From the NCBI RefSeq assembly GCF_003018255.1, contig NZ_CP027440.1: a stretch of DNA of 64,000 nucleotides; one strand, 5' to 3'. The position numbers and the translations under genes were made by a program. The DNA is from Escherichia coli. GTDB taxonomy: Bacteria; Pseudomonadota; Gammaproteobacteria; Enterobacterales; Enterobacteriaceae. This document shows, piece after piece, positions 8,126 through 9,554 of the stretch (its first letter is position 1; each line of letters starts with the position of its first letter). Under the pieces are notes generated by a model, which saw nothing but the letters and a program-made list of their open reading frames with translations, ran no database searches and was not told the DNA's origin.

Positions 8126-8764
8126 TTAACTCCGGCCCAGACGCATTTCACGTTCAGCTTCAGTTAAAGAAGCAAGGAAAGAGTCACGCTCAAAGACGCG
8201 GGTCATATAGCCTTTCAGCTCTTTCGCACCCGGGCCGCTGAACTCGATGCCCAGTTGCGGCAGACGCCACAGCAGAGGAGCAAGGTAGCAATCGACCAGG
8301 CTGAACTCATCGCTCAGGAAGTACGGCTTCTGACCGAAGACCGGCGCAATCGCCAGCAGTTCTTCGCGCAGTTGCTTACGTGCGGCATCGGCTTCAGAAG
8401 CTGAACCGTTGATGATGGTGTTCATCAGCGTGTACCAGTCTTTTTCGATGCGATGCATGTACAGACGGCTTTCACCGCGAGCTACCGGGTAAACAGGCAT
8501 CAGTGGCGGATGCGGGAAACGCTCATCCAGATATTCCATAATGATGCGAGATTCCCACAGGGTCAGCTCACGATCCACCAGGGTCGGAACGCTCTGATTC
8601 GGGTTGAGGTCAATCAGATCCTGAGGCGGATTGTCCTTTTCCACGTGTTCGATCTCGAAACTTACACCTTTCTCAGCCAGCACAATGCGGACCTGATGGC
8701 TATAGATGTCAGTAGGACCGGAAAACAGCGTCATTACCGAACGTTTGTTGGCAGCGACAGCCAT
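8126..8764 (-). CDS. sspA: Stringent starvation protein A (GST-like, RNA polymerase-associated)
   Basis: 212-aa ORF matches E. coli SspA. Confidence 0.95.
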   Translation of the reverse strand: MAVAANKRSVMTLFSGPTDIYSHQVRIVLAEKGVSFEIEHVEKDNPPQDLIDLNPNQSVPTLVDRELTLWESRIIMEYLDERFPHPPLMPVYPVARGESRLYMHRIEKDWYTLMNTIINGSASEADAARKQLREELLAIAPVFGQKPYFLSDEFSLVDCYLAPLLWRLPQLGIEFSGPGAKELKGYMTRVFERDSFLASLTEAEREMRLGRS

Positions 8765-9100
8765 GAAAACCTCCAGGTATAGTCAGAATTTTTACTGCTA
8801 CCAGCCACCAGGTGGCCAGTCAGAAGTTGTGTTACCCAGTAAGGAACGACTCTCTTTGTTCGAAAATCAAACAAAAAATGAGCAATACCCGACATTTGGG
8901 CAGAAAATTGGATGATAGTTTACCAGATTTTGCGACCTTTGTGGTGAGTCGATGCCGGAAATGGGGAAAAAGAGATGCGCTTTAGTCTGAAATAGTTGAC
9001 TTAGTCCCTTATTGGCGATGTGGTTTTTGTTTTACCTGTCTGTCAGGTGGCAGCAAAAAGCAACTTCCCATTTTTTACGCTGATGCAGATTTTAGCCATA

Positions 9101-9126
9101 AAAAAACCCGCCGAAGCGGGTTTTTT
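9101..9126 (-). terminator. Intrinsic terminator downstream of rpsI
   Basis: CCCGCttcgGCGGG hairpin followed by a T-run on the minus strand. Confidence 0.6.
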
Positions 9127-9158
9127 CGCAAATTGTTTTCTGCCGGAGCAGAAGCCAA

Positions 9159-9554
<396 letters not shown>

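What the first reader, a model, noticed from the sequence alone, without database searches (positions are those of the whole stretch)
8804..8816. Perfect 13-bp palindrome in the sspA leader
GCCACC-A-GGTGGC lies about 40 bp upstream of the sspA start codon on the template for the sspA leader. It could be an operator or a leader RNA hairpin affecting sspAB expression.
Basis: seen in the sequence. Interest (0 to 1): 0.12.

Follow-up and report, generated by a model that had tools for sequence, protein, structure and literature searches.

The report
Conserved stem-loop in sspA mRNA leader
The 13-base palindrome upstream of E. coli sspA is the core of an RNA hairpin in the gene's 146-nt leader, kept by compensating mutations across the sampled Enterobacterales; it is a real but ordinary kind of leader element whose function has not been tested.

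Summary
The palindrome GCCACCAGGTGGC is at window 8804-8816 (- strand sense, -52..-40 from the sspA ATG), as reported. A perfect 6-1-6 palindrome is not rare: 17 in the window against 17.3 expected. Comparison shows it is not chance. In 39 Enterobacteriaceae an 8-bp helix at this position is 91% paired. Five of its 8 pairs show compensatory changes, loop length and sequence vary, and there are 58 G.U cells against 2 A.C cells. Selection therefore acts on the sspA-sense RNA, not on a DNA operator or an antisense RNA. A hairpin at the same place is predicted in most of 42 further loci from five other families. A conserved extended -10 (TGGTAAACT, -161..-153) predicts a start at -146. Published Cappable-seq (146) and RegulonDB (149) agree, so the hairpin lies at +92..+110 of the mRNA. 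It is not a terminator, not an Rfam family, not a repeated element, and shows no conserved SD-sequestering pairing. The most likely role is a cis-acting structural module that sets sspA mRNA stability or translation. That role is inferred, not shown. I judge it a new member of a known kind, of modest interest.

The parts
8804..8816 (-). The reported 13-bp perfect palindrome. It forms the top 5 base pairs plus the 3-nt loop (CUG) of the RNA hairpin. Its centre, CCAGG, is a Dcm CCWGG site in E. coli only.
   Evidence: (I11). The centre is CCCGG in E. albertii and differs elsewhere.
8800..8820 (-). Full stem-loop on the sspA mRNA: A CUGGCCAC CUG GUGGCUGG U (-56..-36, about +91..+111 of the transcript). 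It has 8-9 bp including U.G and G.U pairs.
   Evidence: Folds at -12.3 kcal/mol, with arms paired at P=0.99 in the full leader. Helix 91% paired with 5/8 pairs covarying in 39 Enterobacteriaceae. 58 G.U versus 2 A.C cells.
8794..8827 (-). Possible outer extension of the hairpin (ACU.CUG ... UAG.AGU, or CUG/CAG). The pairs are almost invariant, so it is neither confirmed nor refuted.
   Evidence: helix 1: 90% paired, little variation.
8828..8832 (-). ACACA (-68..-64), a C/A-rich single-stranded stretch just 5' of the hairpin. It coincides with the MazF-cleaved ACA reported 66 nt upstream of the sspA start.
   Evidence: Sequence. PMC5001579 Table 1.
8788..8799 (-). AGCAGUAAAAAU (-35..-24): four consecutive A-R-N triplets in the A/U-rich linker between the hairpin and the SD. 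It is specific to the Enterobacteriaceae lineage.
   Evidence: a run of 3 or more in 30/39 Enterobacteriaceae-like loci; other families have a run of 2 or less.
8770..8774 (-). Shine-Dalgarno GGAGG (-10..-6), within a block that is nearly invariant across the order.
8765..8910 (-). The sspA 5' UTR (146 nt). It is at least 99% identical in 5417 of 5425 complete E. coli genomes.
8910..8910 (-). Main transcription start (C at -146). RegulonDB gives 149, which is window 8913.
   Evidence: Predicted from the -10 spacing. EDL933 Cappable-seq distance 146 and RegulonDB 149, in PMC10469882 Table S5. The EDL933 leader is identical to the window (H23).
8917..8925 (-). Extended -10 promoter element TGGTAAACT (-161..-153) of the sspA main promoter.
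   Evidence: Present upstream of sspA in most of the 80 Enterobacterales loci: the pattern scan scored 65 of the 72 it could evaluate, 59 of them with this exact 9-mer. Lies inside an invariant block.
8853..8877 (-). Upstream leader hairpin (UUUUUGUUUGA UUU UCGAACAAAGA), the apical part of a predicted 5' domain.
   Evidence: (I3). The RNAalifold helix shows mostly one-sided changes.
8780..8780 (-). Minor start reported 16 nt upstream of the ATG, downstream of the hairpin. Its -35/spacer zone would overlap the palindrome.
   Evidence: PMC10469882 Table S5. The overlapping bases (TGGCCA) are not conserved in other genera.
9101..9126 (-). rpsI intrinsic terminator (AAAAAACCCGC TTCG GCGGGTTTTTT). 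It separates sspA transcription from rplM-rpsI.
   Evidence: (I1).
8126..8764 (-). sspA coding sequence (212 aa).

Best explanation
The palindrome is the apex of a conserved stem-loop in the 5' untranslated leader of the sspA-sspB mRNA. Transcription starts about 146 nt upstream of the ATG from an extended -10 promoter. The hairpin forms at about +92..+110. It sits between a structured 5' domain and the A/U-rich linker that precedes the Shine-Dalgarno sequence. Shown here: the position in the transcript, the conservation of pairing with compensatory changes, and selection on the sense-strand RNA. Inferred: it acts in cis and after transcription, as an autonomous, stable structural module that sets sspA mRNA lifetime and/or translation. 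One candidate mechanism is that it blocks 5'-to-3' access of RNase E to the A/U-rich linker. Another is that it becomes a near-5'-terminal protective hairpin after cleavage at the ACA 66 nt upstream of the start. It does not appear to gate the ribosome-binding site by direct pairing.
For: Position in the transcript:
- TGGTAAACT is conserved at about -160 across Enterobacterales, inside an invariant block.
- Published start distances are 146 (EDL933 Cappable-seq) and 149 (RegulonDB).
- MazF cleavage is reported 66 nt upstream of the start.
- A fragment carrying 236 bp of upstream sequence complements a sspA deletion.

Structure:
- A MAFFT alignment that was not fitted to any structure gives an 8-bp helix that is 91.3% paired in 39 sequences.
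- Five of the 8 pairs change on both sides. None of 500 shuffles reaches the observed values. Registers slid by 1 or 2 columns give 19-32% pairing.
- Loop length and sequence vary.

Strand:
- 58 G.U versus 2 A.C/C.A cells.
- Sense MFE -12.3 versus antisense -8.3 kcal/mol over 78 distinct sequences. Mean z is -1.54, against about 0 for neighbouring windows.

Breadth and context:
- A hairpin at the same place is predicted in most loci of Erwiniaceae, Pectobacteriaceae, Yersiniaceae, Hafniaceae and Budviciaceae.
- The arms are paired with P=0.99 in the full E. coli leader.
- Within Escherichia, variants keep the stem: U.G to C-G and C-G to U.G in L003; only the apical pair is lost in SI-NP020.
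Against: - No experiment here or in the searchable literature links the hairpin to expression.
- In silico disruption of either arm did not change predicted SD accessibility consistently (0.23 versus 0.23 and 0.41).
- An SD-pairing helix seen in the E. coli MFE fold is only 68% kept and does not covary.
- For the 42 more distant loci the alignment was fitted to the model, and pairing drops to 77-80%.
- The sequences are phylogenetically related, so shuffle counts and Wilcoxon p-values are not true probabilities.
- The RNase E-obstacle and 5'-terminal-hairpin ideas rest on general knowledge, not on data for sspA.
Confidence: 0.6

Rival explanations
1. The hairpin is a recognition module for a trans-acting factor, which regulates sspA translation or decay during starvation. 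The factor could be an RNA-binding protein such as Hfq, ProQ or CsrA, or an sRNA pairing next to the hairpin.
For: - The stem is immediately followed by four A-R-N triplets in most Enterobacteriaceae.
- It is preceded by a C/A-rich single strand. In E. coli, AACACAAC there matches the GcvB R1 G/U-rich region.
- The 36 nt between the hairpin and the ATG are far more conserved than an SD alone needs.
- The hairpin is autonomous and does not gate the SD in silico.
Against: - The A-R-N run is absent outside Enterobacteriaceae, although the hairpin persists there.
- The GcvB duplex energy is no better than for shuffled leaders (27% of shuffles as good), and the C/A sequence is not conserved.
- sspA does not appear in the main text of the GcvB regulon paper, and its supplementary files are not held.
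- The loop sequence is not conserved and has no GGA motif.
- No literature hit links sspA to Hfq or sRNAs in E. coli.
Confidence: 0.22
2. The palindrome is a DNA operator for a dimeric transcription factor. It would act either as a roadblock within the leader, or on the minor promoter that fires 16 nt upstream of the ATG.
For: - It is a perfect inverted repeat in E. coli.
- A minor start at -16 is reported. That places the palindrome over the minor promoter's -35/spacer region.
Against: - Half-site sequences differ between genera while complementarity is kept.
- Arm spacing varies from 3 to at least 9 nt.
- 58 G.U pairs would be mismatches in a DNA inverted repeat.
- The site is 95-107 nt downstream of the main start.
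- The TGGCCA -35-like bases are not conserved.
Confidence: 0.04
3. The region is conserved for an antisense transcript, starting from a promoter-like site on the + strand (8754-8783) and reading through the palindrome.
For: A sigma-70-like match GCGACA-18-TATAGT lies on the + strand just before the palindrome.
Against: - One such match is at the chance level for this region (0.6 expected).
- The + strand folds much worse.
- A.C/C.A cells, which would be the G.U pairs of an antisense RNA, are almost absent (2 versus 58).
Confidence: 0.03
4. A chance palindrome with no function.
For: 6-1-6 palindromes occur at exactly the expected frequency in the window.
Against: Covariation, strand asymmetry, positional conservation across six families, and a fold-energy excess confined to this segment of the leader.
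Confidence: 0.03

Closest known systems
Stabilising stem-loops in enterobacterial mRNA 5' UTRs, e.g. the ompA leader hairpins (from my own knowledge of the Belasco-lab literature; not retrieved here)
   Same: A stable stem-loop in a long (about 130-150 nt) 5' UTR of an enterobacterial mRNA. Structure is conserved rather than sequence. It sits upstream of an A/U-rich single-stranded segment and the SD.
   Different: The protective ompA hairpin is at the extreme 5' end. The sspA hairpin is internal (+92..+110) and would be near-terminal only after cleavage at the ACA 66 nt upstream of the start. No half-life data exist for sspA.
Structural obstacles to RNase E scanning from the 5' end (general mechanism, from memory)
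   Same: A stable hairpin lies directly 5' of an A/U-rich, RNase E-type single-stranded stretch (UAAAAAUUCUGA).
   Different: This is purely an analogy. No RNase E site has been mapped here.
Inverted-repeat transcription-factor operators
   Same: A perfect inverted repeat in E. coli DNA, near a gene start.
   Different: Half-sites and spacing are not conserved. G.U-type asymmetry is present. The site is far downstream of the main start.
Intrinsic terminators and attenuators
   Same: A G+C-rich hairpin in a leader.
   Different: No U-tract follows: the stem is followed by GGUAGCAGUAAAAAUU. The terminator scan finds none here.
Hfq distal-face (A-R-N)n sites next to hairpins in mRNA leaders, as described for rpoS (from memory)
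   Same: Four A-R-N triplets directly 3' of the stem in Enterobacteriaceae.
   Different: The triplet run is missing in other families that keep the hairpin. No Hfq binding data were found.

Membership tests
Cis-acting 5'-UTR structural element (mRNA leader stem-loop) | Lies within the transcribed leader, downstream of the start site and upstream of the start codon | tested here: met
   Conserved extended -10 at -161..-153. Published start distances are 146 and 149. MazF cleavage 66 nt upstream of the start. The hairpin spans -56..-36.
Cis-acting 5'-UTR structural element (mRNA leader stem-loop) | Base pairing conserved through compensatory changes | tested here: met
   91% of cells paired, 5/8 pairs changed on both sides, 0/500 shuffles. 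RNAalifold recovers the helix.
Cis-acting 5'-UTR structural element (mRNA leader stem-loop) | Pairing specific to the mRNA strand (G.U tolerated, A.C not) | tested here: met
   58 G.U versus 2 A.C/C.A cells. Sense -12.3 versus antisense -8.3 kcal/mol.
Cis-acting 5'-UTR structural element (mRNA leader stem-loop) | Mutating the structure changes expression or mRNA stability | not testable with these tools
   Needs reporter fusions with disruptive and compensatory mutations.
Transcription-factor operator | Half-site sequence and spacing conserved in orthologous promoters | tested here: not met
   The arms differ (GGCCAC, GGCCCC, AGCCGC, GGTCGA, AGTCGC and others) and loops range from 3 to at least 9 nt.
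Transcription-factor operator | Overlaps or adjoins the core promoter | tested here: inconclusive
   +95..+107 relative to the main start. It overlaps the -35/spacer zone of a minor start at -16, but those bases are not conserved.
Intrinsic terminator / attenuator | G+C-rich stem followed by a run of U | tested here: not met
   No terminator-like site here. The 3' flank is GGUAGCAGUAAAAAUU.
Any Rfam 15 family | Covariance-model match | tested here: not met
   No hit on the leader at E<=1. The only weak hits lie on the rpsI terminator.
REP/BIME-type repeated extragenic palindromes | Multiple dispersed copies of a consensus palindrome | tested here: not met
   Single copy in 64 kb with up to 1 mismatch. 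The covariance model R1 finds one hit in the window.
RNA thermometer / SD-sequestering leader | Conserved pairing of the SD with an upstream anti-SD segment | tested here: not met
   The candidate helix (-64..-58 with -10..-4) is 68% paired, has no covariation, and its central pair is broken in 27/39. Arm mutations do not change SD accessibility consistently.
Upstream ORF / leader peptide | Conserved start codon and reading frame | tested here: not met
   The 53-aa ORF 8734-8895 starts at an ATG that is ATA in Enterobacter and some Citrobacter. Loop indels are not multiples of three.

The most novel reading that the evidence does not exclude
The whole 146-nt sspA leader is a conserved multi-domain regulatory RNA that senses or binds something. 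Its parts are an invariant 5' segment, a 5' domain with its own hairpin, this stem-loop, and an invariant RBS-proximal block. It could be a platform for a protein or sRNA, or a ligand-responsive leader. Such a leader would add a post-transcriptional layer to starvation control of the global regulator SspA and the ClpXP adaptor SspB.
Probability: 0.15. Interest if true: 0.6.

Novelty: new member of a known kind. Interest (0 to 1): 0.3.

Why it matters
SspA is an RNA-polymerase-associated global regulator of stationary-phase, acid-resistance, virulence and CRISPR-adaptation phenotypes. SspB is the ClpXP adaptor for ssrA-tagged proteins. In the papers I could search, their control is described only as ppGpp-linked starvation induction. 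A long leader with a hairpin kept by compensatory evolution across six sampled families of Enterobacterales points to a post-transcriptional control point that the searchable literature and Rfam do not describe. It also gives precise mutations to test. It is still an ordinary class of element, and no phenotype is attached to it yet.

Tried and rejected
- **Chance.** The frequency of 6-1-6 palindromes is exactly as expected, so the palindrome alone carries no information. The case rests on comparative data.
- **Rfam.** No family matches the leader.
- **Terminator or attenuator.** No U-tract follows the stem.
- **SD-sequestering helix** from the E. coli MFE fold. It is not conserved, and the in silico arm mutants are inconsistent.
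- **uORF 8734-8895.** Its start codon and frame are not conserved.
- **GcvB targeting of AACACAAC.** A seed match exists, but the duplex energy is not better than for shuffles and the site is not conserved. sspA is not in the main text of the GcvB regulon paper, and its supplements are not held.
- **Hfq A-R-N site.** It is lineage-specific only.
- **Dcm CCWGG centre and the NtrC-like half-sites** (the NtrC resemblance recalled from memory). Neither is conserved, and the spacing is wrong for NtrC.
- **Start-site tables.** I found no sspA entry in PMC11092163, PMC4782308, PMC4681348, PMC7132871, PMC10301672 or PMC3415461. The 1987 sspA gene paper and Thomason 2015 are not held.
- **Text search for the sequence itself.** It found only unrelated papers.
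- **Not done:** I did not look beyond Enterobacterales (Vibrionales, Pasteurellales, Pseudomonadales), to spare the large protein search.

Full report
**Identity of the region.** The window is Escherichia coli. Bases 8700-9200 are 100% identical to strain 104 and match 5425 of 5426 complete E. coli genomes. On the - strand lie rplM, rpsI (9159-9551), sspA (8126-8764) and sspB. The rpsI-sspA spacer aligns to MG1655 without indels, so window position + 3368656 gives the NC_000913.3 coordinate.

**The observation.** GCCACCAGGTGGC is at 8804-8816, which is -40..-52 from the sspA ATG. By itself it is unremarkable. The window holds 17 perfect 6-1-6 palindromes, against 17.3 +/- 4.2 in dinucleotide shuffles. 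It is single-copy. No Rfam family matches the leader, and no terminator-like site is found there.

**The fold depends on the strand.**
- On the sspA-sense RNA, wobble pairs extend the stem to A-CUGGCCAC-CUG-GUGGCUGG-U (9 bp, -12.3 kcal/mol).
- The opposite strand forms only 5 bp (-6.7 kcal/mol).

**Comparative evidence.** I fetched 80 sspA loci, each from a different species genome, spanning six families of Enterobacterales. The sequence upstream of the ATG shows a hairpin at the same relative position in nearly all of them, but with different arm and loop sequences.

A MAFFT alignment of -70..-1 from 39 Enterobacteriaceae-like loci, not fitted to any structure, gave these results:
- RNAalifold recovers the helix.
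- For the 8-bp helix, 91.3% of cells are standard pairs.
- Five of 8 pairs have changes on both sides, for example A-U to G-C in 9 sequences and to C-G in 3.
- None of 500 column shuffles reaches the observed values.
- Sliding the 3' partner by 1-2 columns drops pairing to 19-32%.
- Loops vary from 3 to at least 9 nt.

Strand test: the helix holds 224 Watson-Crick, 58 G.U and only 2 A.C/C.A cells. A DNA inverted repeat or an antisense RNA would not show this asymmetry.

Alignment-free test over 78 distinct sequences:
- The -66..-28 segment folds at a mean of -12.3 kcal/mol (mean z -1.54), against -8.3 for its reverse complement.
- Three other segments of the same size have z near 0.

A covariance model built from the Enterobacteriaceae alignment finds exactly one hit per locus in the 42 more distant loci, always just upstream of sspA. 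Pairing there is 77-80%. That alignment is model-fitted, and part of the score comes from the conserved RBS block.

Within Escherichia, variants keep the stem:
- L003 has U.G to C-G and C-G to U.G.
- SI-NP020 loses only the apical pair.
- E. albertii changes only the loop.

These sequences are related, so the shuffle counts are not probabilities. Even so, the several independent pair types and the strand asymmetry make chance or DNA-level explanations unlikely.

**Is it transcribed?**
- An extended -10 motif, TGGTAAACT, sits at -161..-153 in E. coli. It is present at a similar distance in most of the 80 loci: the pattern scan scored 65 of the 72 it could evaluate, 59 of them with the exact 9-mer.
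- The motif lies within a block (AAAATCTGGTAAACTATCATCCAATTTTCTGCCCAAAT) that is nearly invariant in Enterobacteriaceae.
- Normal spacing predicts a start at C-146 (window 8910).
- Supplementary Table S5 of PMC10469882 lists start-codon-to-TSS distances for sspA. They are 149 in RegulonDB v10.5 for K-12, and 146 and 16 by Cappable-seq in EDL933.
- The EDL933 leader is identical to the window (H23).
- PMC5001579 lists a MazF-cleaved ACA 66 nt upstream of the sspA start. This matches ACACA at -68..-64, directly 5' of the hairpin.
- A fragment with 236 bp upstream of sspA complements a sspA deletion (PMC11879090).

The hairpin is therefore at about +92..+110 of a 146-nt leader.

**Anatomy of the leader.** Predicted folds of the full leader show four parts:
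- a 5' domain, with closing helix UGCCCA/UGGGUA and an apical hairpin at 8853-8877;
- a C/A-rich single strand;
- the palindrome hairpin, with arms paired at P=0.99;
- an A/U-rich linker followed by the SD GGAGG.

The leader is at least 99% identical in 5417 of 5425 E. coli genomes. The 501-nt stretch that includes the upstream spacer is 95-99% identical in 4287 genomes. Six of the 7 differences between the window and MG1655 lie upstream of the promoter.

**Mechanism.** The hairpin is not followed by a U-tract, so it is not an attenuator. An SD-pairing helix in the E. coli MFE fold is not conserved. In silico arm mutations do not change SD accessibility consistently. It therefore does not look like a thermometer or a direct RBS gate.

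The best-supported reading is an autonomous cis-acting structural module of the mRNA. By analogy with known leader hairpins (my own knowledge, not tested here), it most likely affects mRNA lifetime or translation efficiency. It could hinder RNase E access to the A/U-rich linker. It could also become a near-terminal hairpin after cleavage at the ACA 66 nt upstream of the start: in the 41-nt fold, the outer pairing begins 3 nt after that position.

A factor-binding role is the main rival. Four A-R-N triplets follow the stem in Enterobacteriaceae, but not in other families that keep the hairpin. A GcvB R1 seed match to AACACAAC is not better than chance and is not conserved.

The operator reading is disfavoured by the non-conserved half-sites, the variable spacing, the G.U asymmetry, and the position far downstream of the main start. 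The minor start at -16 leaves a small residual possibility.

**Novelty.** Nothing in Rfam 15, or in the searchable literature, describes this element. It is a new member of a very familiar kind, a conserved 5'-UTR stem-loop. Its value is as a concrete handle on post-transcriptional control of sspAB, which these sources do not describe.

Noticed in passing
window 8903-8911; L085 (E. coli ATCC 8739, AgNO3-adapted): An IS1 element with a 9-bp target duplication of window 8903-8911 (insert about 776 bp) sits exactly at the sspA main start site (-139..-147). It separates the extended -10 from the intact leader. About 59 of 5425 complete genomes have an interruption somewhere in 8700-9200, yet none interrupts the leader itself.
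   Followed up: partly
L003:284-1340 (E. coli SCPM-O-B-8794): The rpsI-sspA spacer is 1217 bp instead of 394. It holds an extra 264-aa gene with DUF695 and RraB (regulator of ribonuclease activity B) domains, in the same orientation as sspA and upstream of the intact sspA promoter.
   Followed up: partly
window 8873-8933 (- strand): The block AAAATCTGGTAAACTATCATCCAATTTTCTGCCCAAAT, covering the -10 plus the first ~17 transcribed nt, is almost invariant in 39 Enterobacteriaceae. That is more than a -10 element needs. The transcribed part (CAAUUUUCUGCCCAAAU) may pair with a conserved UGGGU(A/G) at -74..-69 to close a 5' domain. This was not tested for covariation.
   Followed up: partly
window 8926-9100: The spacer between the rpsI terminator and the sspA promoter is about 80 bp longer in E. 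coli and E. albertii (intergenic 394 bp) than in other genera (about 300-340 bp). It carries most of the within-species polymorphism.
   Followed up: no
window 8780: A second Cappable-seq start, 16 nt upstream of the sspA ATG, is reported in EDL933. It would give a transcript with the SD but without the hairpin. Candidate -10 is TAAAAA(T) at -30..-24.
   Followed up: no
window 8754-8783 (+ strand): A sigma-70-like match (GCGACA-18-TATAGT) points antisense into the sspA leader. It is at the chance level for the region.
   Followed up: no
L001 (strain 104 annotation): Locus tag RS07380 is missing between sspA (RS07385) and rpsI (RS07375). This suggests that a feature once called in the spacer was later dropped.
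   Followed up: no
window 8734-8895 (- strand): A 53-aa ORF runs through the leader and hairpin into sspA in another frame. Its start codon and frame are not conserved, so it is probably spurious.
   Followed up: yes
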